Shown here one piece after another: positions 30,086 through 52,108 of a stretch of 64,000 nt of DNA. Origin of the DNA: an uncultured Hyphomicrobiales bacterium (GTDB lineage Bacteria > Bacteroidota > Ignavibacteria > Kapaibacteriales > Kapaibacteriaceae); NCBI GenBank assembly GCA_964620125.1, contig CAZUGQ010000003.1:89529-153528 (forward strand), given 5' to 3'. Numbering within the stretch: the first letter of the stretch is position 1; each line of letters starts with the position of its first letter. The position numbers were made by a program, and so were the translations under genes. The notes beneath the pieces were generated by a model. That model saw only the letters and a program-made list of their open reading frames with translations, was not told the DNA's origin and ran no database searches.

Positions 30086-33000
30086 ATGACGAGACCAATA
30101 GAATGTCTCGCCACAGGACGGCTTCGTAATAGAGCCGCCAGGGCAGTTTTTTTGCTCGTGGCAGCACTTTCGGCAGTCGTTGCAGCGATACCTATATATA
30201 CACAGCCGTATACCGATAACGTTGGTATCGGGACTGCATTGCCTGACCCCTCCGCCTTGCTCGAACTGCGCAGTTCAGAGAAAGGTTTCCTCATCCCGAG
30301 AATGACGCAGTTGGAGCGTGATGCCATTCAGCAGCCTGCAACAGGATTGCTCATCTTCAACTCCACTGCCAACGCCATTCAGTACAACATCGGTACCAAG
30401 TTCTCCCCGGTTTGGGTGAGCATGTTGTACATCAACGTCGACGGGGGATCAAGCTCCGGCGTGTTCTGGTCGCTTCTTGGCAACGACTCTGTTGATGCCA
30501 CGAAAAACTTCCTTGGAACGACCAACGACCAGCCGCTCATCTTAAAGACAGATAGTGTTACTCGGATGACGCTCACAGCTACCGGTGAGATCATCATCGA
30601 AGGGCCAACGAGCATCACGGGGCAGCTCGACCTTACGGGCATCACCTCGCCACTTACACTTGATGGCAATGCCGGCACACCCGGGCAAGTGCTCGTGAGC
30701 AACGGTCCTGGAGTAACACCCAGATATACGGATTCGCTCACCCTCAGCCAGCTCGTCACTACGGGTGACGTACTGGTCGGTGGTGACCTGGTAGTTAGTG
30801 GTAATGCCACATTTGTGGATACAGCCTACTTTGACGTGTTGCCGAGTATTCCCCTGAACTATGGCAACATTCTGGTTGGTGATTCTACCAACCGAGCTGT
30901 TCCGCTGGTGCCCGGCCTTGAGGGCTCGCTCATGCAGATTTCCAGTGGCAGACCGATGTGGATCAAGCCCGATGAAGCCGCATACTGGTCCATCACCGGC
31001 AATGCTGGCATGGGGTCGGCAAACTTCCTTGGCACCTTGGACGCGTCGGACCTTCAGCTGGCCAGCAACGGACAGCTTCGGGCCTCGATTACGGCACTTG
31101 GCCAGTTCAACATCCTGATTCCCACGAGCATTACCGGCAGTCTGGATCTCGTTGGTCCAAGCTCGCCGCTCGTTCTGCAAGGAAATGCTGGCATAGCCGG
31201 GCAGGTGCTCGTATCGCAGGGGCCGGGTACGACGCCTATATACTCCGATAGCCTCACCCTCCGATCGCTCACTGTTATTGGCCCGGCATTCTTTACCGAT
31301 ACGGTAAACTTTAGCCGACTACCTTCCATCCCGCTCAACAACAACCACTTGTTGGTAGGCAATGCCAATAATCTGGCAACCCCCTTTCCTCCAGGCGGCG
31401 ATAGTACCTTTCTAGCAATCTTCGATGGCAACGTTCAGTGGTTCGATCTTGGACTGTTACTCCGCAATACAGCCTGGATTGTGGGTGGTAACAGCAGTGT
31501 TGGCAGCCCTATCCTGGGTAATCTCGACACAACGGGCATGCGAGACCTTCACCTCTACGCAGGTGGCAAGCCCCTTCTCACGTTCGATGGCACCAACTAC
31601 ACCGCTGCCTTGGCTGCACCGCTCAACCTGCAGGGTGCAAGCACCTCCTTGTCACTTGACGGTGACCCTGGCATTGCCGGACAGGTATTGATCAGTCAGG
31701 GGGCTGGGGTTACGCCTCGGTATACGGACTCTCTCGTTCTTAGCTCACTTACCGTTACTGGCCAGAGCCGTTTCCAGGACACGGCCACGTTCGACGTGTT
31801 CCCCGTGTTCCCACTGCTTCATGGCAACATGATTGTAGGAGACAGCACCGGCAAAGCAAGGGTTCTTCCACCCGGACTCGAAGGCTCGCTCATGCAGGTG
31901 TACAATGGGCAACCAACCTGGGTTACTCCCGACGAGGCCAACTACTGGTCACTTGATGGTAATGCCGGTGTGGGCACATCGGCTTTTCTTGGAACCACCG
32001 ACGCTAACGACCTTCGCATTGGTACCAGCGGTGCTTTACGTGCCACCTTTACAGCCGGAGGTGTTCTGGACGTGCAGGTACCTACGACCATCACAGGTTC
32101 GTTGAACCTCGTTGGCCCAAACAGCCCCTTGCAGGTTAATGGTGATGCTGGCTTCAGCGGCTGGGTGTTGATTAGTCAGGGTATCAACCAAACACCGGCG
32201 TATACGGATTCGTTGGTACTGCGTGCAGCCGTGATCAACAGCAGTCTTACGCTTGCCGGTGTCAGTTCGGTGATCATGCTGAACGGCGATGCAGGCACGG
32301 CCGGACAGATCCTTGTATCGCAAGGACCGTCCGCCACGCCTCGGTACACAGACACTCTCACCCTTAGTTCCCTTACTGTAACCGGCGAAAGTTTCTTCCA
32401 GGATACGGCGCACTTTGCCGTGTTCCCGGATTTTCCGCTTCAGCACGGTTTCTTGATTACAGGCGACAGCACTAACAGAGCACGGCAGTTTGCCCCGGGT
32501 CTTGAAGGATCGCTTCTGCAGGTGTACAATGGCCAACCAACCTGGGTAAGTCCGGACGAAGCCAACTACTGGTCTCTTGACGGTAACGCCGGTGTGGGTC
32601 CCACGGCCTTCCTGGGCACCACTGATGCCAACGACTTGCGTATCGGTACAAACGGTGCCTTACGAGCAACCTTTACGGCAACAGGCCTTCTGGATATTCA
32701 GGTGCCTACAAGTATCACAGGCTCCCTAAACCTGGCAGGTTCTTCTTCTCCGTTGTTGCTCAACAGTGATGCGGGGGTATCTGGCTGGGTACTCATCAGT
32801 CAGGGGCCTGCACAAACACCAGTATATACAGACTCATTGCTGCTTCGGGCCGTTGTTGTTAACAGTAGTCTCACGCTCGACGGTCCGTCTACCGAATTTT
32901 TCCTAAACGGTGATGCTGGCGCATCCGGCCAGGTACTCATTTCGCAGGGGCCCGGAGCCACGCCACGATATACGGATACATTGTCGCTCGGATCACTCAC

Positions 33001-33688
33001 AGTAACCGGTGAGAGTTACTTCGTAGACACGGCGCACTTCAGCGTATTCCCGGACTTCCCACTCGAGCATGGTTATCTCATTGTAGGCGATAGCACCAAC
33101 ACTGCCGTTCCGTTTGCTCCCGGACTTGAAGGTTCACTTCTGCAGGTCTACAACGGTCAGCCCACGTGGGTAAGCCCCGACGAAGCGCAGTACTGGTCGT
33201 TATCCGGCAACGCAGGTGTTGGTCCCGCTGCATTCCTTGGTACCACCGACGCCAATGACCTACGTTTTGGCACCAATGGTGGACTGCGAATGACGATCGG
33301 TGCCGTTGATGGAGCCGTAACCATTGAGAGTTTATCGGGTGTGCCTTCCACAGCCCCCTTAACAGCAAATGATGGATTAGTGATTGCCGATGGATCTGGT
33401 ACTATTACGAAAAGGGATAAGAGTGTACTTCTGGACCTGCTGGGTATAGCGGCTGGTCGATTCGAGAATACGGGCGCAACCACGCAATTCAACGTGGTGA
33501 TCAATATTCCTGGTGGGTTCCAAATGGATCCTGCCGCGAGCATTACCATTACGCCAGAAGCCACGAGCAGTGTGAGCATCACACCATTTGTGGTCGCGGG
33601 CAGCCGCACGCCAACGTCGTTCACCATCAACTTTCCGGGTGGCCTTGATCCGGGAGAAGCCATCAACTGGCTGGTAAAGAACCCCTGA
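30086..33688 (+). CDS. secreted fibre-like protein: signal peptide, N-terminal tail-fibre-like motif, six ~190-aa internal repeats, C-terminal WLVKNP-class module
   Basis: ORF 30029 trimmed to MTRPIECLATGRLRNRAARAVFLLVAALSAVVAAI. Motifs VGIGTALPDPSALLELRSSEKGFLIPRMTQLERDAI and NFLGTTD...L.I.T......R..I. The units containing TGSLNLVGPNSPL...GDAG..G.VLISQG......YTDSL.L..L.V.G...F.DTA.F.VFP.FPL.HG..I.GDST......PGLEGSL.QVYNGQPTWV.PDEANYWSL.GNAGVG are repeated six times. Confidence 0.75.
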   Translation: MTRPIECLATGRLRNRAARAVFLLVAALSAVVAAIPIYTQPYTDNVGIGTALPDPSALLELRSSEKGFLIPRMTQLERDAIQQPATGLLIFNSTANAIQYNIGTKFSPVWVSMLYINVDGGSSSGVFWSLLGNDSVDATKNFLGTTNDQPLILKTDSVTRMTLTATGEIIIEGPTSITGQLDLTGITSPLTLDGNAGTPGQVLVSNGPGVTPRYTDSLTLSQLVTTGDVLVGGDLVVSGNATFVDTAYFDVLPSIPLNYGNILVGDSTNRAVPLVPGLEGSLMQISSGRPMWIKPDEAAYWSITGNAGMGSANFLGTLDASDLQLASNGQLRASITALGQFNILIPTSITGSLDLVGPSSPLVLQGNAGIAGQVLVSQGPGTTPIYSDSLTLRSLTVIGPAFFTDTVNFSRLPSIPLNNNHLLVGNANNLATPFPPGGDSTFLAIFDGNVQWFDLGLLLRNTAWIVGGNSSVGSPILGNLDTTGMRDLHLYAGGKPLLTFDGTNYTAALAAPLNLQGASTSLSLDGDPGIAGQVLISQGAGVTPRYTDSLVLSSLTVTGQSRFQDTATFDVFPVFPLLHGNMIVGDSTGKARVLPPGLEGSLMQVYNGQPTWVTPDEANYWSLDGNAGVGTSAFLGTTDANDLRIGTSGALRATFTAGGVLDVQVPTTITGSLNLVGPNSPLQVNGDAGFSGWVLISQGINQTPAYTDSLVLRAAVINSSLTLAGVSSVIMLNGDAGTAGQILVSQGPSATPRYTDTLTLSSLTVTGESFFQDTAHFAVFPDFPLQHGFLITGDSTNRARQFAPGLEGSLLQVYNGQPTWVSPDEANYWSLDGNAGVGPTAFLGTTDANDLRIGTNGALRATFTATGLLDIQVPTSITGSLNLAGSSSPLLLNSDAGVSGWVLISQGPAQTPVYTDSLLLRAVVVNSSLTLDGPSTEFFLNGDAGASGQVLISQGPGATPRYTDTLSLGSLTVTGESYFVDTAHFSVFPDFPLEHGYLIVGDSTNTAVPFAPGLEGSLLQVYNGQPTWVSPDEAQYWSLSGNAGVGPAAFLGTTDANDLRFGTNGGLRMTIGAVDGAVTIESLSGVPSTAPLTANDGLVIADGSGTITKRDKSVLLDLLGIAAGRFENTGATTQFNVVINIPGGFQMDPAASITITPEATSSVSITPFVVAGSRTPTSFTINFPGGLDPGEAINWLVKNP

Positions 33689-33833: not shown

Positions 33834-34772
33834 ATGACATTCAATTCACTTTGGAAGGGGCTTGCCATTGCGGCTACCCTGTTCCTTATCGGCTCGGAAG
33901 CTTTTGCTCAGCTTCCTGTACGGACGCGTCAGTTGGAGATGCTAGGCACCACTGCTGGTCGCCTGCTGTTCGATACTCCAGCTACCATAACGAACTACAC
34001 TGTTACTTGGCCAGCGAATGCTACTGGATTCCTCGCTGATGGTGATACAGCCATCATCGTTGGTGTGCGAACAGCCGCTAACGACATTGATCTCGGCTGG
34101 AGACAGGTAACCGGTGACCTGATCGACGGTATCGGTACAGCTGGTCAGGTAGCTTGGTTCCAAGATGCCAACACAATCGTGTCGGATGGAGGCTTCACAT
34201 ACAACTCGGCAACGCAGGATGTTGGAGTTGGTAATGACGTGAACGCTGGCAACGACGTGAATGCTGCCAACGACGTAGATGCTGCTAACGACGTCCGTGC
34301 AGGCACCACCATTACCCTTGATGGTTCTGCCGGTGACATCGTTTTTAATGGAGTTACGCTGCAATCTGGAACTTCCACGGGAACTACGATTGCGTTCGAC
34401 AACGCACCAAACGGAGGAAGCTATTACGTCACTCCATCTACAAACCCTGCAATTCTGGCAACGGATGGATACATCCTTGTATCAAACGGAGATGGTACTG
34501 CAACCTGGATTGCTAACCCTGCTTCCGGATTCAAGGCAGGTGTGTACACGCATGCTGGTGCAGACACGTACACGGTAAACATCACCTTTACGAACGCATA
34601 CCCTGCACTTACTGTGCCTTCGGTTACGCTTACCTACTTCGATGCCACAAACGCCAACATCGTTCAAGCCACAGCGATATCGAACACAGGGTTCACGATT
34701 ACAAGCACAGCACCAATCGTTGCTGGTGATGCAATAAGCTGGATGGCAAGCTCACCGGTTGACCTTCCATAA
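33834..34772 (+). CDS. secreted protein, member of the fibre-array family (short form)
   Basis: Signal peptide MTFNSLWKGLAIAATLFLIGSEAFA followed by QLPVRTRQLEMLG, which is shared with the next gene. Has VNAGNDVNAANDV repeats. C-terminus ...DAISWMASSPVDLP. Confidence 0.65.
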   Translation: MTFNSLWKGLAIAATLFLIGSEAFAQLPVRTRQLEMLGTTAGRLLFDTPATITNYTVTWPANATGFLADGDTAIIVGVRTAANDIDLGWRQVTGDLIDGIGTAGQVAWFQDANTIVSDGGFTYNSATQDVGVGNDVNAGNDVNAANDVDAANDVRAGTTITLDGSAGDIVFNGVTLQSGTSTGTTIAFDNAPNGGSYYVTPSTNPAILATDGYILVSNGDGTATWIANPASGFKAGVYTHAGADTYTVNITFTNAYPALTVPSVTLTYFDATNANIVQATAISNTGFTITSTAPIVAGDAISWMASSPVDLP

Positions 34773-34782
34773 CACTCTCCGT

Positions 34783-34838: not shown

Positions 34839-34846
34839 TACATACA

Positions 34847-36472
34847 GTGAAGCTACGCGCCTACCATAGCCCCCTTTCAATCAGCATCATCGTGATGATG
34901 GTGGCGGTGTGCATTGTGCCCATACAGGCACAGTTGCCGGTGCGTACGCGGCAGGTGCAGCTATTGTCGAACAACAACACCAACTACACGACACTACGGA
35001 GTGCCGACGGGCAAACCACAAACTGGAGCCTGATCCAGCCGACGACGGTAGGGACAACCGGTAGTCTGCAGTTGAGTACGGTTACTGGTTCCGATGCACA
35101 GTTAAGTTGGCTTGCACCGGGATTGCCGGGGTACATCCTAGGCCTTGCGGCTGGCATTCCAGCCTGGGTGGATCCTGCCACATACCTGAGTGGTAGCTTC
35201 TGGGCGCTTACCGGCAACGCCGCCACCAACCCGGCTACCAACTTTCTTGGCACCACCGATGCGCAGCCTCTGGTGATTCGTACCAATGCCACCGAGGCCA
35301 TGCGAGTACTGAGCACAGGGCAGGTAGGTATTGGGACGGCAACACCTGGTGAGTTGCTTGAGGTGGAAGACGGCAACGTTCTCATCGGAACCAGTGCGGC
35401 AGGCAGCACGGGTGAGTTGCGCTTGGAAGAAGCGGGTGCCAATGGCAACAATTACGTAGGCTTCCAGGCAGCCGATGCCATGGCTGCGAATACAACGTAC
35501 ACGTTGCCGGATGCCTACCCATCGGTAAACAACTACGTGTTGGCTGCCACAACGGCTGGAGTAATGAACTGGCAGGATGCCAATGCATTGGTAGACAACT
35601 TCTGGTCGCTTGACGGTAATGCGGGAACCAACCCAGCCACACAGTACCTGGGCACGCAGGATGCACAACCACTTGTGATTCGTACCAATGCCACCGAGGC
35701 CGTGCGCATTAATGCCACCGGTGAGGTAGGCATTGGCACTACGGCTGCGGCGGGCTACCTACTGCATGTGGATGGCACGGCCGGTACACCGAACATTCGG
35801 TTTACAAGCGTGAGCGGAATTGCCAATGCAAGCATACCGGGAGGATTCGATAGGGTACTGATTTCTGATGCAACAGGCAATGTAGACCAGGCTTCGTATG
35901 CAGCTGTTGTTGGTACCACTGCATGGACACTGACCGGAAACGCCGGTACCAGCGTGGCTACAAACTTTGTTGGTACCACGGACAATGTTGGCCTGGTGTT
36001 CCGAACAAACAATACCGAAGTTGCACGCTTCAATGCGACGGGGGAGTTTGGTTTGGGTACCACTGCAGCAGCAGGATATCGGTTGCATGTTGCAGGCACA
36101 GGCGGCACGCCAAACGTAAGGATTGCAAGCCTGTCGTCGGACGCAGCAACAGTGCCCTCGGGTGAAGGCGTCGTCACTGCCGATGCCAACGGTGATCTGC
36201 GCCGACGCAGTGCTAATGACCTGTACACAATTCTGGGTATCGGCAGGGGCATCTACACGCCGGGTGCCGCAGGCAGCTCGTTTACTGTAACAACTACCGG
36301 ATTCGACATTGCTGCCGGTGCAACCGTAAACATTACGGTGTTCGGACCAACAGGTGGTGCCGTTCATGCTATGCTCACTTCGATTAGTGCCGCTACAGAC
36401 CAATTCTCCTTTACCACGTCTGCCACGATCGACGCCACCTACAGCATTCACTGGATGATCTTCAACCCGTGA
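34847..36472 (+). CDS. secreted tail-fibre-like repeat protein (fibre-array family)
   Basis: Signal peptide MKLRAYHSPLSISIIVMMVAVCIVPIQA + QLPVRTRQVQLL. Two copies of FW.L.GNA.TNPAT.[FY]LGT.DAQPLVIRTNATEA.R....G.VGIGT. Repeated VDGTAGTPN.R..S.S modules. C-terminus ...YSIHWMIFNP. Confidence 0.7.
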   Translation: MKLRAYHSPLSISIIVMMVAVCIVPIQAQLPVRTRQVQLLSNNNTNYTTLRSADGQTTNWSLIQPTTVGTTGSLQLSTVTGSDAQLSWLAPGLPGYILGLAAGIPAWVDPATYLSGSFWALTGNAATNPATNFLGTTDAQPLVIRTNATEAMRVLSTGQVGIGTATPGELLEVEDGNVLIGTSAAGSTGELRLEEAGANGNNYVGFQAADAMAANTTYTLPDAYPSVNNYVLAATTAGVMNWQDANALVDNFWSLDGNAGTNPATQYLGTQDAQPLVIRTNATEAVRINATGEVGIGTTAAAGYLLHVDGTAGTPNIRFTSVSGIANASIPGGFDRVLISDATGNVDQASYAAVVGTTAWTLTGNAGTSVATNFVGTTDNVGLVFRTNNTEVARFNATGEFGLGTTAAAGYRLHVAGTGGTPNVRIASLSSDAATVPSGEGVVTADANGDLRRRSANDLYTILGIGRGIYTPGAAGSSFTVTTTGFDIAAGATVNITVFGPTGGAVHAMLTSISAATDQFSFTTSATIDATYSIHWMIFNP

Positions 36473-36513
36473 TAAGCACAACTCACGATAGGAAACCTTC
36501 AATTCTCACTGGT

Positions 36514-44053: not shown

Positions 44054-45340
44054 ATGCGAACAATCAACACGCTCATTTGCTTCTGCCTATCCAGTGCCAT
44101 TCTTTCTGGTCAGGATGACTCGTACCAAACATTCAACGCAATACGATTGGAGAACAGCAGCAACCCAGGTGCTTTTGTCCAGCTCAATGCACCAACGGGC
44201 CTAACATCCTATAACCTTACTTTGCCCGCAACTGGTCCGTTAAACACCACACAACGTTGGGCCTTCTCTCTGAACGGTTCCAACAATGCCTTGAGTTGGT
44301 ATGCAACACCATTAGGCAACACCAATCAGATTGCTTACTTCACTGGTACCGAATCCATTGTTAGTGGTAGCAACCTGACGTGGAATCCTACAACCCAGCA
44401 GATGGGCGTGTCGGGTACGTTGAACAACACCCTGTTGAGCCTTACAAAGTCAGGTGCAATAACAGGCAACGATACTTTGCTCATGATTACAGCAACATCC
44501 ACTGGAAGTACGGCAATCTCTCAAACATTGCTTGAGCTTAATGCATCAAGTACGTTAACTGCAGGCACTCGGCGTGGTCTTCACATAGCTGTTACCGGTG
44601 CTACCAACAACTATGCAGCCATTTTTGAGTCAGGAAGGGTTGGTGTTGGTGTAGTTGCACCGAATACCACCTTCGATGTTAGTGGCACGACAGCAACTCG
44701 TGAGTTTAACTACACTGCCAATCTTAGTGCTACGAACAACAACGTGGATTTTACTGGTGATGGTAACACGTCTTCGTTCGTCCGGGTTGGCTCAACTACT
44801 TCGGGAACAGTCTCAATTACCGGATTTGCAGGTGGATCAAATGGGAAAGTGCTAACCGTTTACAACGCAACTGGGTACGGATTGCGCTTGGAGCATAACG
44901 ATGCGGGATCTACGGCTGCCAATAGAATAAAGGCTCCTAACAGTACGGACTTTGTAATAATTCCTGGCGCAGCGTACCAGCTTGTGTATTCCGAAACAGA
45001 TCAACGTTGGATAGTAGCCTTTTCAGGACCGGGCGAGATAACGACTCTCGGTAATGCCAACGTTACGGTGACAACAAGCTCTAGCTACCAGCTGCCTTCG
45101 TCAATGTCCTCCTACATTCAAGTTACCAGCAATTGCCCAGGAAACGACTGCTTTGCTACGTTCGAGGATGGCATTTCGCCGGGACAGATTCTGGTTGTTC
45201 AGAATCTTGGTCCCGATATACTGAAATTCTCAGGTTCAAACTTTGCACCGGACAACAGCACCAACCTTCAGGATGACGAGTCAATACCCTTTATCTGGAA
45301 TGGTACGAAGTGGGTGCAAATGGCGGAGGCATCAAACTAA
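44054..45340 (+). CDS. secreted fibre-array family protein with two copies of the C-terminal WVE-type module
   Basis: Signal peptide MRTINTLICFCLSSAILSGQ. N-module FNAIRLENSSNPGAFVQLNAPTGLTSYNLTLPATGP. Internal module GKVLTVYNATGYGLRLEHND...AAYQLVYSETDQRWIV. Terminal GQILVVQNLGPDILKF...DDESIPFIWNGTKWVQMAEASN. Confidence 0.7.
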   Translation: MRTINTLICFCLSSAILSGQDDSYQTFNAIRLENSSNPGAFVQLNAPTGLTSYNLTLPATGPLNTTQRWAFSLNGSNNALSWYATPLGNTNQIAYFTGTESIVSGSNLTWNPTTQQMGVSGTLNNTLLSLTKSGAITGNDTLLMITATSTGSTAISQTLLELNASSTLTAGTRRGLHIAVTGATNNYAAIFESGRVGVGVVAPNTTFDVSGTTATREFNYTANLSATNNNVDFTGDGNTSSFVRVGSTTSGTVSITGFAGGSNGKVLTVYNATGYGLRLEHNDAGSTAANRIKAPNSTDFVIIPGAAYQLVYSETDQRWIVAFSGPGEITTLGNANVTVTTSSSYQLPSSMSSYIQVTSNCPGNDCFATFEDGISPGQILVVQNLGPDILKFSGSNFAPDNSTNLQDDESIPFIWNGTKWVQMAEASN

Positions 45341-45599
45341 TGATGCCACAATGTTTTCTCAATAAGAGTTGCCGCTCGACTGTTTCCGTGATTCGTAGCA
45401 GGTTCGGCACCTTTGCTGTTGGAGAATCCATCCTAAAGGGTAGCCTACTTGATACAAGTAGCGAAAATTACGGCTGGAAAGCCAATAGGTGTACACTGGA
45501 TCGCGTGCACCCAGCGTACTGCCGGGCAACCACAACGCTGATGATCAACTTCCGAGGGGTTCACGTGGTACGTGATGAGGGAAGTGTGGTGATGGTCAA

Positions 45600-45687
45600 T
45601 ATGGGAATGTGGGAATGTGGGAATATGGGAATATGGGAATATGAGAATATGAGAATGTGGGAATGTGCAAATGTGGGAATGGTAGAA
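45600..45687. repeat. simple-sequence repeat: ~11 tandem copies of an 8-bp unit (TGTGGGAA/TATGGGAA/TATGAGAA) ending at the start codon of the next gene
   Basis: Direct reading of 45601-45695: ATGGGAA TGTGGGAA TGTGGGAA TATGGGAA TATGGGAA TATGAGAA TATGAGAA TGTGGGAA TGTGCAAA TGTGGGAA TGGTAGAA TGCAGACA. Several ATGs in different frames lie inside the repeat. Confidence 0.85.
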
Positions 45688-47807
45688 TGCAGACAATAGG
45701 AACCAATGTTCCGAGATGTCTGGGCAGGCGAGTGCGCCATATCGTATTTGCCTGTTTGTCCATGTCCTTTGCCATGTTCTCGCATGCCGCTGCTTACGCT
45801 CAGCATCTTGAGAACAGAGCCACGGGCACTGTTCGTAACTCCGGCACAATCCGGTTTCGCAGTGATTCGGGGAAGTATAAAAACGATGCTGCCTATACCA
45901 ACATCACTAATAACGTAATCCAGTTTGAAGGGTCAAACAACCAGTTCACGGACCTCTCCGGACAAATCGTGGGCACCACTGCTCTTGGACAGAATCCGGC
46001 ATGGCGTGTTCCTGGAATGGTTCGGTACAGCAATCCAACTAGCGCGATGCAGTACGTGCAAAAACGATACTACACCGACTTGGAGATGGCGGATAGCTCT
46101 TCAAAGTGGATACCAGACAGCGTTTTTGTAGGGGGCAGGTATACGATCTTCCTGTCCGGTCCGAGAACCTATAACGGAACCTTCTTCTATGATGGCTCAC
46201 AGCCACAAGACATCATGCAGGAGAAGGAGTTAAGTGGCACTACCAACCGTTACAACAACATAACGTTGCTTCATAGCCCCAAGAATGTGCGTTCAGGCTA
46301 CGAAGTACGTATGGATGGAATATTCCTCAATGATACGCTGAGCCCCTTGTATGTTGAAGGCGACTTTACATGGGGTTCAAACTCATATGTGAATGCACCG
46401 GTAACGGTCTGGGCTGGTGGCAAACAAACCACAGGATATGGTGTTACAGAGTTACGAGCTGACGTAGAAGTGCAGAATGGACTGTTCCTCGTAGCAGATG
46501 ATGCCGACACCGTGACCATCTTTCCAACGTACGAGTTGAGGCAGCAAGCTGATCCAGCCGCCCTTTTTGCCATGGGGCGCAACACACGCTTGTTAGTGTT
46601 GGGTGACTATCGCAATCTGTATGGTCCGCTCACGAATAGCACGTTTGATACCACGTCGCTCGTTGACTACGCCGGAGTACAGGATCCGCAGATAATGCAG
46701 GCAACTGCAGCTACACACCCGTATGGACATCTGCGCACTTCCAACTCCGTGAAGAATGCCAACGGAGATGTCCATGTGGCTTCTACGTTGAGTGTAAACG
46801 ATACGAATGTTGTTATGGTGCCTCACACGATGAGTCTCACTCTCGGTGCTGCTACCTACACGAATAACGCCGAAGTGATTGGTGCCTTCCGCCGAGTGTT
46901 GGCGGGTGCTACCACCACGAATGCATATACATTCAATAACAGCGAGACAACAGCACTGTTCGTTACCGTACCCAACCAGCTCACACTCGATGTACGGCCG
47001 CAAACACGCCCGAACGACTACGATCCTACTACCGACATCTTCCGAAAGATCACGGTAACACACGACGGTAATTGGAAGGCAACGATCAGAGTGGGGTATA
47101 AAGCCGAAGACATTCCAAACACCTGGGTGCCAAGCACGGCCGAACGCTTGCTCAAGATGTACAACGCCTACCCGCCACCTAATGAATACTCCATAAAGCT
47201 CACACCTACCGTGCCGCCAACGTACATCCGACGTCCACTTGCACAAAGCACGGGCATTGCTTTTATTGAGTTGTTCGGAATCGAAAATCAAGGTCCGGAC
47301 AATCTTCGACTTGATAATGGAAACGATCTGCTGCTACGTGCAAGCCGCGACACACTCAAGGCTGTTGCCTCCGGGCGGTGGAGTAACCCATTTACGTGGG
47401 ATGAAGCCCGTGAACCAGAACCTGAAGACAGAGTTGTGATTGACGGATTCACCGTTCACACTGGATACATACGTGCCAACGACAACTATGCTGTCCGTGA
47501 AGCGTGGCCGGACAGCATGGCTCTGCAGGTAACCATTGGCACATCACCAAACAGTGCCTTGCTGTTTGGTTATGAAAGCCCTGGAGTTTGGGACGCTTTC
47601 TCGCTGGTTCCTAACTCATCCGTAAATCTCATCACGCGCCGTATTGCTCCAGCGTTTGTTCAGGCGGACGTTCTTGACCAAACAGCGGCCGATATAGATG
47701 GTGGTCTGATTGTTTACCGCGGAAGCACGTTCCTGTCGCCGAATCTCATTCTCGCACCTAATGCTACCGTAAACAATGCCGGTACGCTTGTAGTGGGGGT
47801 GCCCTAA
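45687..47807 (+). CDS. large secreted protein of unknown function (paralog of the 47894 gene)
   Basis: MQTIGTNVPRCLGRRVRHIVFACLSMSFAMFSHAAAYAQ signal peptide. The upstream in-frame ATG at 45657 lies inside the SSR. N-terminal region GTVRNSGTIRFRSDSG...VIQFEGSNNQF aligns with GVIKNTGMIKIRGDAS...HIHFEGTSRKM of the next gene. Confidence 0.65.
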   Translation: MQTIGTNVPRCLGRRVRHIVFACLSMSFAMFSHAAAYAQHLENRATGTVRNSGTIRFRSDSGKYKNDAAYTNITNNVIQFEGSNNQFTDLSGQIVGTTALGQNPAWRVPGMVRYSNPTSAMQYVQKRYYTDLEMADSSSKWIPDSVFVGGRYTIFLSGPRTYNGTFFYDGSQPQDIMQEKELSGTTNRYNNITLLHSPKNVRSGYEVRMDGIFLNDTLSPLYVEGDFTWGSNSYVNAPVTVWAGGKQTTGYGVTELRADVEVQNGLFLVADDADTVTIFPTYELRQQADPAALFAMGRNTRLLVLGDYRNLYGPLTNSTFDTTSLVDYAGVQDPQIMQATAATHPYGHLRTSNSVKNANGDVHVASTLSVNDTNVVMVPHTMSLTLGAATYTNNAEVIGAFRRVLAGATTTNAYTFNNSETTALFVTVPNQLTLDVRPQTRPNDYDPTTDIFRKITVTHDGNWKATIRVGYKAEDIPNTWVPSTAERLLKMYNAYPPPNEYSIKLTPTVPPTYIRRPLAQSTGIAFIELFGIENQGPDNLRLDNGNDLLLRASRDTLKAVASGRWSNPFTWDEAREPEPEDRVVIDGFTVHTGYIRANDNYAVREAWPDSMALQVTIGTSPNSALLFGYESPGVWDAFSLVPNSSVNLITRRIAPAFVQADVLDQTAADIDGGLIVYRGSTFLSPNLILAPNATVNNAGTLVVGVP

Positions 47808-47893
47808 TGGTGTGGGTAGATCACATCTTAGCTCGATGTGCATCGTTCTTGGCACGTATTCCTTTACCGTTGCCACCAGGTAGCACATGGGCA

Positions 47894-49996
47894 ATGCCTA
47901 ACCTTGTCGGGTTGGCAGTTATGCTCCTCGCACTCTGCTTACCATGCTCCAGCCTCTTATCGCAGCAGCCTTCCATTCTGTTCTCGGAAGGAGTGATAAA
48001 GAATACAGGTATGATCAAGATACGCGGCGACGCAAGCTTAACACAGGATAGCATCGGTGGTGTTGTGCGCTACGAGCGCAATCATGCTGCAGATACTCAG
48101 CTTGTAGCACAGCTCACCTATGCACACATTCACTTCGAAGGTACAAGCCGAAAGATGATCCTTGACCCAACAAGGCCGCTCATCGCCGATAGCACCTTCT
48201 GGTCAGTTGCTAGAGATGTTCAACTAACTCTCAGCCCAGACACATACATCCAGGCAAATAGAACTGTACGCCACGAAGGTGTGATCAACCTCAACCTCCG
48301 CTATGGACGGTTTGTTCTTCGTGGTACGGAAAATCAAGATGTAAGTGGACAAGGTTTTATCCCGATTCTCGAGCTTGATAACCCAACGGGAGCAACAATC
48401 ACCCGAGGGGGGGGGCTGCGGGTGTACGAGCGCCTGGACTTGCAGCGAGGCCAGCTTTCCAACTCACCTGCCGACAACATTTCCGTGTTGCAGGGGGCTT
48501 GGGTTTGGCGTGATGACAGTGGCTCAATTGCCGTGGAGCCACAATGGAACACACGCCTCAACCTTCGGTATTATGGTGATAGTGCGATGCTCGGGGGGCC
48601 AGAAATGGTTCGGAACACCAACGCAATCGGTCACCTGGTGAATGACGACCTAGCCGGTCTCACCCTACCCTACACGATAACCGTTAATGACTCGCTGATT
48701 CTGCGTGGGCACATTCATACCGAGCAGGATGATGTGAACCGTCATGAATTGGTGTACAGTGCAACAATGGACCCTAACTATGTGGGGGTATGGCCAGAAG
48801 TGATCGGCACGCTTACCCGAAGTACACTGCTGGATGGTCGTACAATGAGAATGAACAACAGCTTCACGACCATCTACTTCGCGAATTCTCAAGATCGCGG
48901 CAGTGTGGTCCAATATGCAGTGCGAAGCAAACCTAAAACCACACCACTGCCACTAACGGACATTACCTATAAGGTAGACAGATTCCTGCAGCTCCAAGCA
49001 CGAGATTTTGTGGGCGACACCGTTGCTGATAGCACGTACACGCTCACGCTTGGGTATGCCTGGCGCAACCGAGAGATAGCTGGAGTGGAGCAACCGACTG
49101 TTGTGGAAACCACTGCTCCGTTGCAGGGCCTTGAAGACCAGTTGGTTCTAATGCGGTATAATGGCCTGTCATATAACCCATACGGCTTTTCGATTACGCC
49201 AACAACACCTCTACCGGATCCGCTTGAGGCGTGGCGGTACAGTACAGCAAGTTTGGTGCGTGCCGGCGGTGATTTTGCAATTGGGCTTTCAACAGGACCA
49301 ATCTGGGTGTTAAACACTCGAGTATTCCTCGAAGGTCCGATGCGCACGTATGGTGAGAACTTCACGCCAGAAATGTCGACCGATCTTGCGGCCCTCGGTC
49401 TTGTGCCCAATGTTGCCCCAGACGTATACCCGTACTCGCTCGACCCGGACAGGCTTACAGACACTGCCATCGCCATCGGAGACAGTATCGTTGACTGGGT
49501 GACCGTGGAATTTCGTACCTCGCCAACCGCCAGTGGTCCAGCAGACCTAATTGAAACCTTACTGCTCACAAAGGATGGTCGGGTGTTGGATCCGCAAACG
49601 TTACGACCCAGAATTATCGAAGGTATTCCGTCAGGCTTCTACAACATTGCTGTTCGACACCGAAATCACTTGGCTGTCATCACTGAGCAAAAGGTGTTGG
49701 TAGACAGATCCAACCTCGGGTATGTGGTGGACCTTACAACCGGCACTGGCATGTTCGGTGGAGCCGCTTCGCAAAAGCTGATTGGAACGGCAAACGGACG
49801 GCGGTGGTTTGGCTTGATCGCTGGAGAGGTAGAGGGGGGGGACGAAATACTCCGCTCCGACTACAACCTTGTTTGGGATGCCAGAAATCTGGAAGGCTAC
49901 CTGATCACAGACACCGACTTGAACGGCATCGTGACTACACGGGATGTGAACGTAACATGGAACAATCGGGAGCGCAGCAGTGTGGCCCCGAGATAA
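47894..49996 (+). CDS. large secreted protein of unknown function (paralog of the 45687 gene)
   Basis: ORF 47807 trimmed to MPNLVGLAVMLLALCLPCSSLLSQQ. Contains G9 and G8 homopolymer tracts (~48404, ~49833) encoding Gly runs. Confidence 0.6.
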   Translation: MPNLVGLAVMLLALCLPCSSLLSQQPSILFSEGVIKNTGMIKIRGDASLTQDSIGGVVRYERNHAADTQLVAQLTYAHIHFEGTSRKMILDPTRPLIADSTFWSVARDVQLTLSPDTYIQANRTVRHEGVINLNLRYGRFVLRGTENQDVSGQGFIPILELDNPTGATITRGGGLRVYERLDLQRGQLSNSPADNISVLQGAWVWRDDSGSIAVEPQWNTRLNLRYYGDSAMLGGPEMVRNTNAIGHLVNDDLAGLTLPYTITVNDSLILRGHIHTEQDDVNRHELVYSATMDPNYVGVWPEVIGTLTRSTLLDGRTMRMNNSFTTIYFANSQDRGSVVQYAVRSKPKTTPLPLTDITYKVDRFLQLQARDFVGDTVADSTYTLTLGYAWRNREIAGVEQPTVVETTAPLQGLEDQLVLMRYNGLSYNPYGFSITPTTPLPDPLEAWRYSTASLVRAGGDFAIGLSTGPIWVLNTRVFLEGPMRTYGENFTPEMSTDLAALGLVPNVAPDVYPYSLDPDRLTDTAIAIGDSIVDWVTVEFRTSPTASGPADLIETLLLTKDGRVLDPQTLRPRIIEGIPSGFYNIAVRHRNHLAVITEQKVLVDRSNLGYVVDLTTGTGMFGGAASQKLIGTANGRRWFGLIAGEVEGGDEILRSDYNLVWDARNLEGYLITDTDLNGIVTTRDVNVTWNNRERSSVAPR

Positions 49997-51305
49997 TTAC
50001 CGGCCTTATAGAACACAGCGTGTTTTAACAGCTCTGGGTTGCTTGGTGTTCCTTGCCGGACTTGTTCGTGCTCAGGTAGACGGCCGTATCGTCGTGCGGC
50101 CGATGTTGGATCCAGCATACGGGCGATTTACCTTCGACCTTACCATCAGGCGAGAGAGTTCGCGGTGGACGTATCTGGCTAATACGACCATACGGCTTGA
50201 AAGCGTTGACCTTGATCCAACCGGCGGATTCAATCCTGCAGTTCATCAGATCACATTTGTTCCTGATAGCAGCGATCTAAACCTTGTTCCATACAACGCG
50301 CCATCAATGGATGGGTACTATGTTGACTATGGCATGGTGAATGGTGACCTTGTGGTGCACGTGCTAGGTCCGGACAGTGTGCAGAATGCTCACGATATGA
50401 CCAGTACGCTCGATTCCGCTCGAGTTGGCCGATTCATCATCGAGAGCAATGACGGCTCGTATGTGCCTGAACAGCTGCGCATGGCTCAGCCCCTTGACTA
50501 CTATCAGGCAACGGCGTTCAAGATTGACCATGACAGCGTAACGGGTACGGGCTTCGACCGGAACGTCTGGTTTAACAAGCACGACAACCCACCACTCGTC
50601 ATGGCATTTGATGAGCTGCCACCCCCACCGGACACCTGTGGAGCCATTTTTAACTTCTATGGATCCTACGTTGGTGATCTGAGAGTAATGCTTGGCTTCG
50701 ACGTTACGGACGAACACTGCTATGAAGGTTTCATCATCGAACGTGCCTTAGTTGATCGGACACAACCTGACGTTCTGGACTTTCAGGGCAGACCGCAGTT
50801 AACCTATCTCAATGAACCCCGCTTGTTAAGCTGTTTGTGCCTCGAGCCACAAGTGCATGACAGTTTGTTCGACGAAGTAGAATTCAGACGTGAGATTTAT
50901 GCCTATCGCCTGATTGGCAAACGGTTGCCATTTTACGGTGACTCAAATGAAGTGATTGACACGATTTTTCTTCGAATTCCCAATGCGATCATCTCCAACG
51001 CTCGCATACTTGAGAATCCGTTCAAGGACGTAACCACCATTCGGTTCAATGCCGATGATCGGTTACGACTCGATGCAAAAGTGTTTGATCTTGGTGGACG
51101 CCTGATCGGATACCTGGAGAATGAGAAGGGGCAACCAGCGGAAAACATGGAGTATCCGCTTGGAATAGGATATGAGTTGAAATTCAATGCTCCCGACATA
51201 GCATCGCAAGGGCTGTACAACATCCTACTGGTAGGTACACCAGTTGATGATGAAAGTGTGGCGGAGGGTAGTCGAGTGATCATCAAGGCGCAGCTTCTAC
51301 GATGA
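49980..51305 (+). CDS. secreted protein with type-A T9SS C-terminal sorting domain
   Basis: Signal peptide ...VLTALGCLVFLAGLVRAQ. C-terminal ~90 aa ILENPFKDVTTIRFNADDRLRLDAKVFDLGGRLIGYLEN...GLYNILLVG...RVIIKAQLLR fits the T9SS CTD pattern. Confidence 0.7.
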   Translation: MWPRDNYRPYRTQRVLTALGCLVFLAGLVRAQVDGRIVVRPMLDPAYGRFTFDLTIRRESSRWTYLANTTIRLESVDLDPTGGFNPAVHQITFVPDSSDLNLVPYNAPSMDGYYVDYGMVNGDLVVHVLGPDSVQNAHDMTSTLDSARVGRFIIESNDGSYVPEQLRMAQPLDYYQATAFKIDHDSVTGTGFDRNVWFNKHDNPPLVMAFDELPPPPDTCGAIFNFYGSYVGDLRVMLGFDVTDEHCYEGFIIERALVDRTQPDVLDFQGRPQLTYLNEPRLLSCLCLEPQVHDSLFDEVEFRREIYAYRLIGKRLPFYGDSNEVIDTIFLRIPNAIISNARILENPFKDVTTIRFNADDRLRLDAKVFDLGGRLIGYLENEKGQPAENMEYPLGIGYELKFNAPDIASQGLYNILLVGTPVDDESVAEGSRVIIKAQLLR

Positions 51306-52108
51306 GACCTCTGTTTACCATCGGACTGATCATCATGTGCAGTGCCTTCACAGCAAGTGGACAGATAAGTCAGACTGGGACGGATGAAGGCCTGCAGTAT
51401 CCTCTTGATACGCTCGTGCGAAAGCATGAATGGTGGCTTGGCATCGGAGGCAGTGCGTACTACGCGATGAATTATGGTACCCTGACTGTTGACATCCTGG
51501 GAGGTACCGCACCAAATAGCCCGTCCTTCACCGTTCAGCCATCCGGTGGGTATGGCTATGGGGCCGGATTCGGGCCAGTGGTGGAGTTTCGGCCGATTTT
51601 TTCCCAGTTGGGTTTCCTGTTAACAACGAATGCTGAGTGGCGCTGGGCAACTGCACAAACTGAGGTGCCAATAGCATCTGATATCTTTGCGTACAACGCG
51701 GTATTTGAAGCTCAGTCGCAAGTGTTGTATCTAGCAACCTCGTTCTCAGTGAAAGCCCAGATTGGAGTAACCGGATTGTTTGCCATGGCGGGTATTACTG
51801 CAGATGTTCCACTATCGACGCAGGAAACCTATGTATGGCAACACGAGATTTGGGAAGGCGAGCCACCAAGCAACCTTCCCGGAGCTCCGCAAACAAGCAT
51901 TAAATGGCAAACCCAGGTAGAGTACAGTCCGCGGTTGGGATTGCAAGTCGGAATTGGCCACGACTTTTTGGCTGGTATGTTTGGATATCGAGAACAGTTG
52001 GTAACGCCTTATCTGGTTATTCAGGGAGCAACACCGGCGGTGTTCGAGCCAAGTGCATGGAATAGCATCAGTGCCCGTCTAGGCTTTTTGTGGCGAGCGG
52101 GCTTGTAG
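51302..52108 (+). CDS. signal-peptide protein, putative outer-membrane beta-barrel partner of the upstream T9SS cargo (possibly PorP/SprF-like)
   Basis: MRPLFTIGLIIMCSAFTASGQ signal. Alternating amphipathic beta-strand-like segments with aromatic girdle residues; ends ...ARLGFLWRAGL. Start overlaps the cargo-gene stop (ATGA). Confidence 0.45.
   Translation: MRPLFTIGLIIMCSAFTASGQISQTGTDEGLQYPLDTLVRKHEWWLGIGGSAYYAMNYGTLTVDILGGTAPNSPSFTVQPSGGYGYGAGFGPVVEFRPIFSQLGFLLTTNAEWRWATAQTEVPIASDIFAYNAVFEAQSQVLYLATSFSVKAQIGVTGLFAMAGITADVPLSTQETYVWQHEIWEGEPPSNLPGAPQTSIKWQTQVEYSPRLGLQVGIGHDFLAGMFGYREQLVTPYLVIQGATPAVFEPSAWNSISARLGFLWRAGL

What the first reader, a model, noticed from the sequence alone, without database searches (positions are those of the whole stretch)
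30086..52108. 22-kb co-directional array of 11 secreted fibre/adhesin-like paralogs with shared N- and C-terminal modules and no recognisable secretion tag on most members
Eleven consecutive plus-strand genes, all with signal peptides, start after a 460-bp low-GC leader. They are built from tail-fibre-like motifs (NFLGTTD...R..I.GNVGIGT) and YadA-head-like Gly/Asn beta-roll repeats. Six members share an N-terminal module right after the signal peptide: (I/L)R(I/L)ERNA.PGTYI.L.PP.T.ITPYT..WP, or the variant AQLPVRTRQ..LL. They terminate in one of two conserved extreme-C-terminal modules instead of the type-A T9SS CTD used by the SBBP proteins elsewhere in the window. Only the penultimate gene (49980) has a classical T9SS CTD, and it is followed by a small OMP-like partner. 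The organisation is conserved attachment module, variable shaft, conserved C-terminal module. This is what phage receptor-binding fibres or a family of cell-surface fibrils show, yet no phage structural, assembly or integrase genes are present. I cannot match the locus to a described system.
Basis: partly seen in the sequence, partly recalled or inferred. Interest (0 to 1): 0.85.

Follow-up and report, generated by a model that had tools for sequence, protein, structure and literature searches.

The report
Surface fibre genes beside conserved cassette
An uncultured Kapaibacteria (Bacteroidota) chromosome carries seven phage-tail-fibre-like surface fibre genes next to a five-gene cassette of unknown function that is conserved across the whole lineage; the cassette is a candidate for the still-unknown cell-surface anchor of such fibres.

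Summary
The locus is real, but it is not eleven paralogs. Twelve co-directional genes (30086-52108) all have Sec signal peptides and fall into two parts.

**Fibres.** Seven genes (G1-G6, G8) are mosaic fibre proteins. They combine:
- shaft repeats homologous to the Bdellovibrio MAT fibre Bd3182, carrying its NVGIGT capping-loop motif;
- UspA1/YadA-like beta-roll heads;
- a ~65-aa neck module that is both N-terminal and internal;
- one of two unrelated C-terminal tips (C1, C2) that resemble phage receptor-binding domains.

Neither tip resembles a T9SS CTD.

**Cassette.** G7 and G9-G12 are not fibre paralogs.
- G9 and G10 are homologous; G10 is modelled as a right-handed beta-helix. The two are fused in some genomes.
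- G11 has a divergent but real T9SS type-A CTD.
- G12 is an OmpA-family outer-membrane barrel.
- G9-G10-G11 is colinear in nearly every complete locus among 80 Kapaibacteria species genomes, at a fixed chromosomal site with no phage genes.
- Upstream of it lie either fibres plus G7, or a >3000-aa protein sharing the C-terminal motif of G7 and G9, or neither.

**Best reading.** MAT-like non-S74 adhesive fibres sit next to a lineage-specific, uncharacterised surface-anchoring cassette. The composition is shown; the mechanism is inferred. This is a new variant of a known kind, of moderate to high interest.

The parts
29623..30085 (+). 463-bp leader upstream of G1, 45.4% GC; presumed promoter region
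   Evidence: The sigma-70 consensus scan was no better than chance.
30086..33688 (+). G1: ~1200-aa fibre. It has no N-neck module, three clear ~208-aa (624-nt) tandem shaft repeats with NFLGT motifs, and a C2 tip.
   Evidence: paralogy to G3 and G4; three 300-nt copies spaced 624 nt
33834..34772 (+). G2: short fibre (ORF opens at 33714; the likely start is the Met at 33834). It has the AQLPVRTRQ variant of the N-neck, an (NDVxAA)n 18-bp repeat, and a C2 tip with a weak H_lectin hit.
34847..36472 (+). G3: 541-aa fibre with an N-neck, three shaft repeats carrying the capping-loop motif, an internal neck, and a C2 tip.
   Evidence: PHROG tail fibre; 8OJN Bd3182, E 2e-5, residues 269-421
36469..39744 (+). 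G4: 1091-aa chimeric fibre with an N-neck, a G3-like shaft, an internal neck, a UspA1-like beta-roll (residues 849-963), and a C1 tip.
39786..41675 (+). G5: 629-aa fibre with an N-neck (residues 34-100), a UspA1/YadA-like beta-roll (142-384), a second neck (440-520), and a C1 tip (535-629).
   Evidence: (PF25692, 33.7 bits against a cutoff of 25)
41645..43531 (+). G6: 628-aa paralog of G5 (39% identity over the full length).
43521..44006 (+). G7: small (161-aa ORF) secreted protein. It carries the extreme C-terminal motif ..YNDGELNNDGEIVIGKP that is shared with G9 and with giant upstream proteins of other Kapaibacteria.
   Evidence: (G7+G9 fusion, P0180)
44054..45340 (+). G8: 428-aa fibre with an N-neck, a short shaft and a C1 tip. 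Only in this window does a fibre gene lie between G7 and G9.
   Evidence: (PF25692, 26.6 bits)
45598..45681 (.). 8-bp tandem repeat (AATGTGGG x 10.5) ending 5 nt before the G9 start codon
   Evidence: It is not conserved in relatives.
45687..47807 (+). G9: ~706-aa secreted protein, homologous to G10 over ~140 aa and, by that homology, probably a beta-helix. It has the conserved GRWSNPxTWDEG motif and the C-terminal motif shared with G7.
47807..49996 (+). G10: ~700-aa protein with a right-handed parallel beta-helix, a C-terminal beta-sandwich containing an invariant HRNHL, and a low-confidence tail whose sequence resembles a dockerin-type loop.
49980..51305 (+). G11: 441-aa protein whose N-terminal region has no recognisable domain. 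It carries a divergent T9SS type-A CTD (about residues 334-441, nt 50979-51302).
   Evidence: hhalign 97.6%, E 4e-12
51302..52108 (+). G12: 268-aa outer-membrane beta-barrel of the OmpA family. The OmpA_C peptidoglycan-binding domain found in distant orthologues is missing here.

Best explanation
The region is a core chromosomal locus of a Kapaibacteria-class bacterium (Bacteroidota) with two parts.

**Part A: the fibres (G1-G6, G8).** These are seven Sec-exported fibre proteins of the mosaic adhesive trimer (MAT) kind, non-S74 branch. They are assembled by domain shuffling from:
- triple-beta-helix shaft repeats with NVGIGT capping loops;
- YadA/UspA1-type beta-roll heads;
- a ~65-aa neck module;
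- one of two C-terminal tip domains (C1, C2) that resemble phage receptor-binding domains.

**Part B: the cassette (G7, G9-G12).** This is lineage-wide and uncharacterised. It encodes two paralogous beta-helix proteins, a T9SS type-A cargo protein, and an OmpA-family outer-membrane barrel.

**Inferred mechanism.**
1. G12 sits in the outer membrane. In most lineages it is also tied to peptidoglycan.
2. G11 is delivered and surface-anchored by the T9SS.
3. G10, G9 and G7 form a head-to-tail beta-helical stalk or platform on this base. The C-terminal motif of one subunit would meet the N-terminal cap of the next.
4. The adhesin encoded upstream forms the distal ligand-binding part. Here that is a repertoire of trimeric fibres. 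In other clades it is one >3000-aa protein carrying the same C-terminal motif.
5. The paralog repertoire gives multi-specific adhesion, probably to glycans on particles or other cells.

**Shown:** composition, homologies, synteny and gene fusions.
**Inferred:** trimer state, surface location, physical coupling of fibres to the cassette, and the ligand class.
For: **Fibre identity**
- BLASTP shows mosaic paralogy among G1, G3, G4, G5, G6 and G8.
- G3 and G4 match Bd3182, PDB 8OJN (E 2e-5 and 0.01).
- The MAT capping-loop consensus NVGIGTxxPxxKL is present in G1, G3, G4 and G8.
- G4 and G5 match the UspA1 head.
- There is no S74 domain and no YadA anchor.
- The described MAT architecture is a signal peptide, a conserved N-terminal domain, a trimeric shaft and swapped tips, with the surface anchor unknown (PMC10769870).

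**Cassette**
- The G10 model (pLDDT 83) is a right-handed beta-helix.
- G9 and G10 are homologous (98%).
- G9+G10 and G7+G9 fusion proteins exist.
- G11 has a CTD.
- G12 homologues combine OMP_b-brl_2 with OmpA.
- G9-G10-G11, usually with G12, is colinear in nearly every complete locus among 80 species genomes.
- The locus sits at the same chromosomal site, Pth ... TPR-HisKA/NuoMN.
- The C-terminal motif is shared by G9 (78 copies), G7 (31) and the giant proteins (12 or more), and is absent elsewhere.

**Link between the two parts**
- All four successful look-ups that started from a fibre homologue landed beside the cassette.
- 34 loci have fibres directly upstream of the cassette.
Against: - About half of the cassette loci have no fibre upstream. 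Roughly 16 have a giant protein and roughly 15 have neither. The cassette therefore does not require fibres, and the association could be synteny only.
- No route across the outer membrane is evident for the CTD-less fibres or for G7, G9 and G10.
- Homology of the ~65-aa neck to the ~130-aa N-domain of Bdellovibrio MATs could not be tested (one search was uninformative).
- The N-module is not preferentially conserved within the G5/G6 subfamily, which weakens the idea that it is a dedicated anchor.
- There are no expression data.
Confidence: 0.55

Rival explanations
1. Two unrelated neighbours. The fibre array is an independent set of adhesins that expands at a permissive chromosomal site. It merely sits upstream of a conserved cassette whose function has nothing to do with fibres, for example a beta-helical surface protein complex or an exopolysaccharide-processing complex.
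For: - The cassette occurs without detectable fibres in about 31 of 65 loci with enough upstream sequence.
- Fibres share no module or C-terminal motif with the cassette proteins.
- A 346-nt gap containing a repeat array separates G8 from G9.
- The beta-helix fold matches include pectate and alginate lyases.
Against: - In the fibre-bearing clade the adjacency is invariant. All four successful fibre-first look-ups landed beside the cassette.
- Genes are co-directional and often overlap from the last fibre into G7.
- The slot upstream of G9 always holds a large adhesin-like gene when anything is there.
Confidence: 0.25
2. The two C-terminal modules are new kinds of T9SS sorting domains (the reading closest to the first reader's). 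Fibres would then be exported by the T9SS, with G11 and G12 acting as a cognate adaptor pair, as with SprB and SprF.
For: - Each module is about 90 aa, beta-rich, lies at the extreme C-terminus, and is shared by fibres with different shafts.
- The organism uses a T9SS (CTD proteins in the window).
- No other export route is encoded in the locus.
- From my own knowledge: some Flavobacterium T9SS cargo have CTDs that fit neither type A nor type B.
Against: - hhalign probability against type-A CTDs is 0.8% for C1 and 1.2% for C2, while the positive control (the G11 C-terminus) scores 97.6%.
- jackhmmer seeded from true CTDs never recruits a fibre.
- There is no TIGR04131 (type B) or PorP/SprF hit.
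- Bdellovibrio has MAT fibres with swapped tips; from my own knowledge it has no T9SS, so such tips need not be T9SS tags (PMC10769870).
Confidence: 0.1
3. A degraded prophage or tailocin remnant whose tail-fibre genes have been retained.
For: - PHROG tail-fibre hits for G3.
- PF25692 hits.
- Remote tblastn hits to cyanophage and pelagiphage tail-fibre genes.
- Abundant viral structural matches.
Against: - No phage structural, assembly, lysis or integrase genes in or beside the locus.
- The locus sits at the same housekeeping-flanked site across a whole bacterial class.
- GC content equals that of the genome.
- All products carry Sec signal peptides, which is not usual for phage tail fibres (the last point is from my own knowledge).
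- Identity to phage genes is only 25-36% over single modules.
Confidence: 0.03

Closest known systems
Mosaic adhesive trimer (MAT) fibre superfamily of Bdellovibrio bacteriovorus, non-S74 branch (Caulton et al. 2024, PMC10769870)
   Same: - A Sec signal peptide followed by a conserved beta-rich N-terminal module.
- Shaft repeats homologous to Bd3182 (8OJN), with the NVGIGT..P..KL capping-loop motif.
- Chimeric, swappable C-terminal tip domains without the S74 chaperone.
- Many paralogs per genome.
- The outer-membrane route and the surface anchor are unknown.
   Different: - A different phylum (Bacteroidota, Kapaibacteriia) with no known predatory lifestyle.
- The genes form one tandem, co-directional array at a fixed site.
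- The N-module is about 65 aa and also recurs internally. Its homology to the ~130-aa MAT N-domain is untested.
- The tips are Phage_depo_C-like and H-lectin-like. These are not among the tip folds the paper describes for Bdellovibrio (TNF-like, C-type lectin, two novel beta-sandwiches).
- Several members carry YadA/UspA1-type beta-roll heads.
- The array sits next to a conserved beta-helix / CTD / OmpA cassette, which the paper does not describe for the Bdellovibrio fibres.
Phage tail fibres and tailspikes (T5 pb1 / K1F endosialidase stalk type; CBA120 TSP4 N-terminal XD domains; depolymerase C-terminal beta-sandwich, PF25692)
   Same: - Shaft repeat type, and PHROG tail-fibre hits.
- C2 members weakly hit H_lectin, K1-lyase_C and Gp53-like_C.
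   Different: - No S74 domain.
- No baseplate-attachment context and no phage genes nearby.
- Sec signal peptides are present.
- The locus is a vertically conserved cellular one.
Trimeric autotransporter adhesins (YadA/UspA1)
   Same: Left-handed beta-roll head repeats in G4 and G5 (E 6e-10 and 1e-8 to the UspA1 head), and in G6 by paralogy to G5.
   Different: No C-terminal YadA-type membrane-anchor barrel and no coiled-coil stalk. Type Vc self-export is therefore excluded.
T9SS cargo with an adjacent outer-membrane partner (type-A CTD proteins; SprB/SprF-style gene pairs)
   Same: G11 ends in a type-A-like CTD. Its gene is translationally coupled to the next gene, G12, which encodes an outer-membrane barrel. 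In distant orthologues the barrel carries an OmpA_C peptidoglycan-binding domain.
   Different: - The CTD is divergent and falls below the Pfam and NCBIfam thresholds.
- G12 is OmpA/OMP_b-brl_2-like, not PorP/SprF.
- None of the large proteins in the locus carries a CTD.
Beta-helical passenger and TPS domains of type V secretion (Ag43, IgA1 protease, FHA, HMW1, EtpA)
   Different: - No autotransporter barrel.
- No TpsB/Omp85 partner.
- No NPNL/NPNG TPS motif was tested or seen.
- The similarity is at the level of the generic fold only.

Membership tests
MAT fibre superfamily (PMC10769870) | Sec signal peptide | tested here: met
   Inspection of all seven fibre N-termini shows an n-region, a hydrophobic core and a small-x-small site followed by Gln. 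No predictor tool was available.
MAT fibre superfamily (PMC10769870) | Trimeric beta-helical shaft with capping loops (consensus NVGIGTxxPxxKL) | tested here: met
   G3 residues 269-421 match Bd3182 8OJN at E 2e-5, and G4 matches at E 0.01. The motif occurs in G1, G3, G4 and G8. G5 and G6 instead use a beta-roll head. The trimer state itself is not testable here.
MAT fibre superfamily (PMC10769870) | Conserved ~130-aa beta-rich N-terminal domain directly after the signal peptide | tested here: inconclusive
   A conserved ~65-aa module follows the signal peptide in six of the seven fibres. It also occurs internally. No Bdellovibrio N-domain sequence was available for comparison, and the profile search with A5 returned only 2 hits.
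MAT fibre superfamily (PMC10769870) | Variable, swappable C-terminal tip (S74 or non-S74) | tested here: met
   Two unrelated tips, C1 and C2, sit on different shafts. No PF13884 hit in any fibre.
MAT fibre superfamily (PMC10769870) | Localisation on the cell surface | not testable with these tools
   Needs microscopy or proteomics.
T9SS type-A CTD cargo (TIGR04183 / PF18962) | C-terminal ~80-aa Ig-like sorting domain | tested here: met
   This applies to G11 only. The direct HMM hit is weak (E 0.14). However, jackhmmer from two bona fide CTDs recruits all 74 G11 orthologues, and hhalign against a CTD set with G11 removed gives 97.6%, E 4e-12.
T9SS type-A CTD cargo (TIGR04183 / PF18962) | The same domain on the fibres, G7, G9 or G10 | tested here: not met
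T9SS type-B CTD cargo with a PorP/SprF partner (TIGR04131 / TIGR03519, PF11751) | A type-B CTD on the cargo and a PorP/SprF barrel encoded downstream | tested here: not met
   No NCBIfam or Pfam hit for any of the 12 products. G12 homologues are OMP_b-brl_2 plus OmpA.
Trimeric autotransporter adhesins (type Vc) | YadA-like head repeats | tested here: met
   UspA1 head at E 6e-10 for G4 and 1e-8 for G5. G6 is included by paralogy to G5.
Trimeric autotransporter adhesins (type Vc) | C-terminal YadA membrane-anchor barrel | tested here: not met
   No PF03895 hit. The C-termini are the C1 beta-sandwiches.
Prophage or tailocin tail-fibre module | Adjacent phage structural, assembly or integrase genes, or a mobile and variable location | tested here: not met
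   The flanks are housekeeping genes. The site is the same in distant genomes. Only G3 hits a PHROG family.
Two-partner secretion (type Vb) | A TpsB Omp85/POTRA transporter next to a beta-helical TpsA | tested here: not met
   G12 has 268 aa and no POTRA or Bac_surface_Ag hit. The G10 match to TPS domains is a generic beta-helix similarity.

The most novel reading that the evidence does not exclude
The G7/G9-G12 cassette is a previously undescribed outer-membrane assembly and anchoring apparatus. It would consist of an OmpA-type barrel, a T9SS-delivered CTD protein, and head-to-tail beta-helix subunits joined through a dedicated C-terminal motif. It would display CTD-less adhesins encoded upstream: MAT-like trimeric fibres in one clade and a >3000-aa beta-helical giant in others. 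If so, it is the kind of 'surface element' that MAT fibres are thought to bind but which has not been identified in Bdellovibrio.
Probability: 0.25. Interest if true: 0.8.

Novelty: new variant of a known kind. Interest (0 to 1): 0.6.

Why it matters
- MAT-type fibres were described only in 2024, in a predatory proteobacterium. How they cross the outer membrane and what they attach to are both open questions.
- Here the same kind of fibre appears in a different, uncultured phylum-level lineage. It forms a tandem, domain-shuffled repertoire encoded directly upstream of a small set of conserved envelope proteins.
- That gives concrete candidate partners (G7, G9, G10, G11, G12) to test by multimer modelling and heterologous expression.
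- It also defines a lineage-wide marker locus for Kapaibacteria surface biology.
- The G9, G10 and G11 families have no Pfam or PDB relatives. They are present in nearly every complete locus sampled, so whatever they build is probably central to how these widespread environmental bacteria interact with surfaces or other cells.

Tried and rejected
- The exact-sequence look-up of G5 found nothing, so the window's own contig is not in the collection.
- NCBIfam and PHROG scans of the ten largest products were almost empty.
- The profile search with the neck-module alignment A5 against 5.8 billion proteins returned only 2 short hits. The module is too short for that database size. This used the last search, so homology to the MAT N-domain stayed untested.
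G11, G12, G9 and G7 therefore have no models.
- Profile searches of PDB sequences with G9, G10, G11, C1 and C2 found nothing significant.
- The afdb50 fold library was unavailable.
- Consensus promoter and terminator scans were no better than shuffled sequence.
- Rfam found nothing in the window.
- The 8-bp repeat upstream of G9 is not conserved in relatives, so it is not a shared regulatory element.
- I tested whether the N-module is more conserved, or the C1 tip more variable, than the rest within the G5/G6 subfamily. It is not; all regions are 44-50% identical.
- PF26696 (PTL_trimer), listed for the first fibre gene in two relatives, did not reproduce with the Pfam copy available here.
- The ORF at 45310-45699 was rejected as a gene. 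It has no signal peptide, and its C-terminal third is a translation of the 8-bp repeat.

Full report
**1. What is in the sequence**

Between Pth (29077-29622) and a minus-strand TPR-HisKA kinase (52268-54364) lie twelve co-directional plus-strand ORFs. I call them:

| Gene | Coordinates | Note |
|---|---|---|
| G1 | 30086-33688 | |
| G2 | 33834-34772 | ORF opens at 33714 |
| G3 | 34847-36472 | |
| G4 | 36469-39744 | |
| G5 | 39786-41675 | |
| G6 | 41645-43531 | |
| G7 | 43521-44006 | |
| G8 | 44054-45340 | |
| G9 | 45687-47807 | |
| G10 | 47807-49996 | |
| G11 | 49980-51305 | |
| G12 | 51302-52108 | |

- Junctions are tight or overlapping (-31 to +145 nt), except for 346 nt before G9.
- The leader is 463 bp at 45.4% GC, against 52.4% for the window. 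The array itself has genome-like GC.
- All twelve products have plausible Sec/SPI signal peptides, each with Gln at +1. That matches the Bacteroidetes Q-rule (PMC5837995).
- A thirteenth ORF (45310-45699) is probably spurious. Its C-terminal third is a translation of an 8-bp tandem repeat.

**2. Seven fibres, not eleven paralogs**

All-against-all BLASTP links only G1, G3, G4, G5, G6 and G8, in a mosaic pattern. G2 joins them through its N- and C-modules.

Examples of the mosaic pattern:
- G4 residues 442-599 resemble G3 residues 292-454 (46% identity).
- G4 residues 773-938 resemble G6 residues 80-244 (40%).
- G4 shares its C-terminus with G6 and G8.
- G1 shares its shaft with G3.
- G5 and G6 are 39% identical over their full length.

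G7, G9, G10, G11 and G12 have no similarity to the fibres.

The building blocks are as follows.

- **Shaft repeats** carrying N[FY]LGT...GxVGIGT.
  - G3 residues 269-421 match PDB 8OJN at E 2e-5, and G4 matches at E 0.01.
  - 8OJN is Bd3182 of Bdellovibrio, a MAT fibre.
  - G3 also hits PHROG tail-fibre families.
  - G1 contains three clear 624-nt repeats.
- **Beta-roll heads.** G4 and G5 match the UspA1 head (E 6e-10 and 1e-8) and sub-threshold LbR_Ice_bind. G6 is included as the full-length paralog of G5, with its own sub-threshold LbR_Ice_bind hit.
- **A ~65-aa neck module**, [ILF]R[ILF]xE..G.NY..F.AP....YTLP...G..GQ.L....G...L.W.
  - It also occurs inside G3, G4, G5 and G6.
  - In related loci it occurs 127 times in 80 ORFs, half of them N-terminal and half internal.
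  - It also sits inside S74- and YadA-type fibres of other phyla.
- **Two C-terminal modules.**
  - C1 (G4, G5, G6, G8) scores above the Pfam cutoff for PF25692, Phage_depo_C.
  - The same model has 239 BFVD matches, many of them tail fibres, minor tail proteins and tailspikes.
  - C2 (G1, G2, G3) members weakly hit H_lectin, K1-lyase_C and Gp53-like_C.
  - C1 and C2 are unrelated to each other.
  - No fibre has an S74 domain or a YadA anchor.

**3. Are the C-modules secretion tags?**

I ran a controlled test.

- jackhmmer seeded with two bona fide T9SS type-A CTDs was run against the C-termini of all ORFs in the window and in 86 related loci. The seeds were the window protein at 57207-59678, which is above the TIGR04183 cutoff, and a WD40 protein of L047 with PF18962 at 32 bits.
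- The search recruited every G11 orthologue (74) and the other CTD proteins. It recruited no fibre, G7, G9, G10 or G12.
- hhalign of the G11 C-termini against a CTD set with G11 removed gave 97.6% probability (E 4e-12).
- C1 against the CTD set gave 0.8%, and C2 gave 1.2%.
- Type-B CTD and PorP/SprF models hit nothing.

So G11 has a real but divergent type-A CTD. The direct HMM gives only E 0.14. The fibre C-modules show no sign of being CTDs.

**4. The conserved cassette**

- **G10.** It has only 40 database homologues. All are about 700 aa, lack Pfam domains, and come from Kapabacteria/Ignavibacteria MAGs.
  - It also has a C-terminal beta-sandwich with an invariant HRNHL and a low-confidence tail.
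- **G9.** It has 179 representative relatives and is homologous to G10 over about 140 residues (98%).
  - Proteins of 1450-1580 aa are G9+G10 fusions.
  - One 911-aa protein joins G7-like and G9-like parts.
- **G12.** Its distant orthologues are 450-480 aa and combine OMP_b-brl_2 with OmpA_C. The window copy is barrel-only.
- **Distribution.** A genome scan with the G9 profile returned 80 loci. All are from Kapaibacteria-type MAGs, several with mislabelled titles. G9-G10-G11, usually followed by G12, is colinear in nearly every complete locus.
- **Chromosomal site.** The site is conserved: SOD, Lon-N and Pth upstream, and a sensor kinase plus NuoM/N downstream.
- **Relative conservation.** Cassette proteins are conserved over their full length (for example 78-80% identity to L007). 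The fibre complement differs in number and in domain content between relatives.

**5. What sits upstream of the cassette**

In the window's clade, two to eight fibre genes are followed by G7.
- All four successful look-ups that began from a fibre homologue landed beside the cassette.
- L087 shows a complete array: Pth, eight fibre genes, G7, G9, G10, G11, G12, kinase.

Other clades differ.
- Some have one G1-like fibre of about 1000-1200 aa plus G7.
- About 16 loci have a protein of at least 2900-3300 aa that runs off the fetched flank.
- About 15 loci have neither. Many of these carry G9+G10 fusions.

An extreme C-terminal motif, (I/V)xNxGxLxNxGxIx(V/I)Gx(P), is shared by G9 (78 copies), G7 (31) and the giant proteins (12 or more). 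It is absent from the fibres and from G10-G12.

G7, G9 and G10 each begin, after the signal peptide, with G-x-I-x-N-x-G-x-I-type rungs. Together with the gene order and the fusions, this suggests a head-to-tail G7 (or giant) to G9 to G10 assembly. That is inference.

**6. Interpretation**

*Shown:*
- The fibres are MAT-like, non-S74, phage-fibre-derived mosaic proteins.
- The cassette is a lineage-wide set of envelope proteins: two beta-helix paralogs, one T9SS cargo and one OmpA-family barrel.
- The locus is chromosomal and vertically inherited, not a prophage. Similarity to phage genes is only 25-36% over single modules.

*Inferred:* the cassette forms an outer-membrane-anchored platform, and the upstream adhesins (a fibre repertoire or a giant) are its distal binding elements. 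This would give multi-specific adhesion.

*Weak points:*
- The cassette exists without fibres in about half of the loci.
- No export route for the CTD-less proteins is evident.
- The N-module is not preferentially conserved.
- There are no expression data.

**7. Comparison with known systems**

The closest known class is the MAT superfamily (PMC10769870). That paper describes a signal peptide, a conserved N-domain, a meandering trimeric shaft and swapped tips. It states that the surface element bound by the N-domain 'awaits further study'.

Membership tests:
- Met: signal peptide, shaft and capping loop, non-S74 swapped tips.
- Inconclusive: N-domain homology.
- Not testable here: surface location.

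The fibres are not trimeric autotransporters (no anchor), not T9SS type-A or type-B cargo, not a TPS system, and not a prophage.

**8. Verdict**

- The fibres are new members of a recently described kind.
- The tandem array plus the conserved, uncharacterised cassette make the locus a new variant of that kind.
- There is a minority chance (about 0.25) that the cassette is a new adhesin-display apparatus.
- Interest: 0.6.

Noticed in passing
window 45598-45681: An 8-bp tandem repeat (AATGTGGG x 10.5, 88% matches) ends 5 nt before the G9 start codon, inside a 346-nt gap. It could be a slipped-strand switch or a binding-site array. It is not conserved in relatives.
   Followed up: partly
window 44054-45340: The G8 fibre gene lies between G7 and G9 only in this window. 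In every related locus G7 directly abuts G9. This looks like a local rearrangement or insertion that also created the long G8-G9 gap.
   Followed up: partly
window 30086-52108 (all 12 N-termini): Every predicted signal-peptide cleavage site exposes Gln at +1 (the Bacteroidetes Q-rule, PMC5837995). This extends the rule to a Kapaibacteria-class genome, at least for this locus.
   Followed up: no
L045, L055, L062, L063, L069, L070, L083; proteins P0182, P0185, P0197, P0203, P0208, P0214, P0180: Natural fusion proteins join G9 to G10 (1450-1580 aa) and G7 to G9 (P0180). This is Rosetta-stone evidence that these three products act together.
   Followed up: yes
L036-L041, L047, L051, L060, L061, L071-L073, L076, L077, L085 (about positions 1-9800): Proteins of more than 2900-3300 aa, cut by the fetch limit, lie directly upstream of G9 and end in the same C-terminal motif as G7 and G9. 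One has a G8 domain. A LuxR-type response regulator is often inserted between the giant gene and G9.
   Followed up: partly
window 51302-52108 versus L064:15649-17010 and L047:17555-19006: The window's G12 lacks the OmpA_C peptidoglycan-binding domain that its distant orthologues carry.
   Followed up: partly
window 34236-34294: An 18-bp tandem repeat (3.3 copies) inside G2 encodes an (N-D-V-x-A-A)n stretch.
   Followed up: no
L081:8892-9240; L074:5495-5556: Unrelated tandem repeats (21 bp x 16.6 and 13 bp x 4.7) also lie upstream of G9 in two distant Kapaibacteria. The region before G9 may generally be prone to repeats.
   Followed up: no
window 14060-17221, 17305-19863, 57207-59678: Three further secreted proteins end in T9SS type-A CTD-like tails. 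Two also have weak SBBP/beta-propeller hits, and the 57207-59678 protein is the only one above the TIGR04183 cutoff. This confirms that the organism uses a T9SS.
   Followed up: partly
record titles of L007, L008, L011, L037, L041, L073, L079, L084, L085: Several MAGs carrying this Kapaibacteria-specific locus are titled 'Hyphomicrobiales' or 'Bradyrhizobiaceae' in the public records. These are probably taxonomic mislabels.
   Followed up: no
L004:14318-17799; L088:14817-16210: Some relatives carry additional fibre genes of about 375-437 aa downstream of G12, so the fibre repertoire can flank the cassette on both sides.
   Followed up: no
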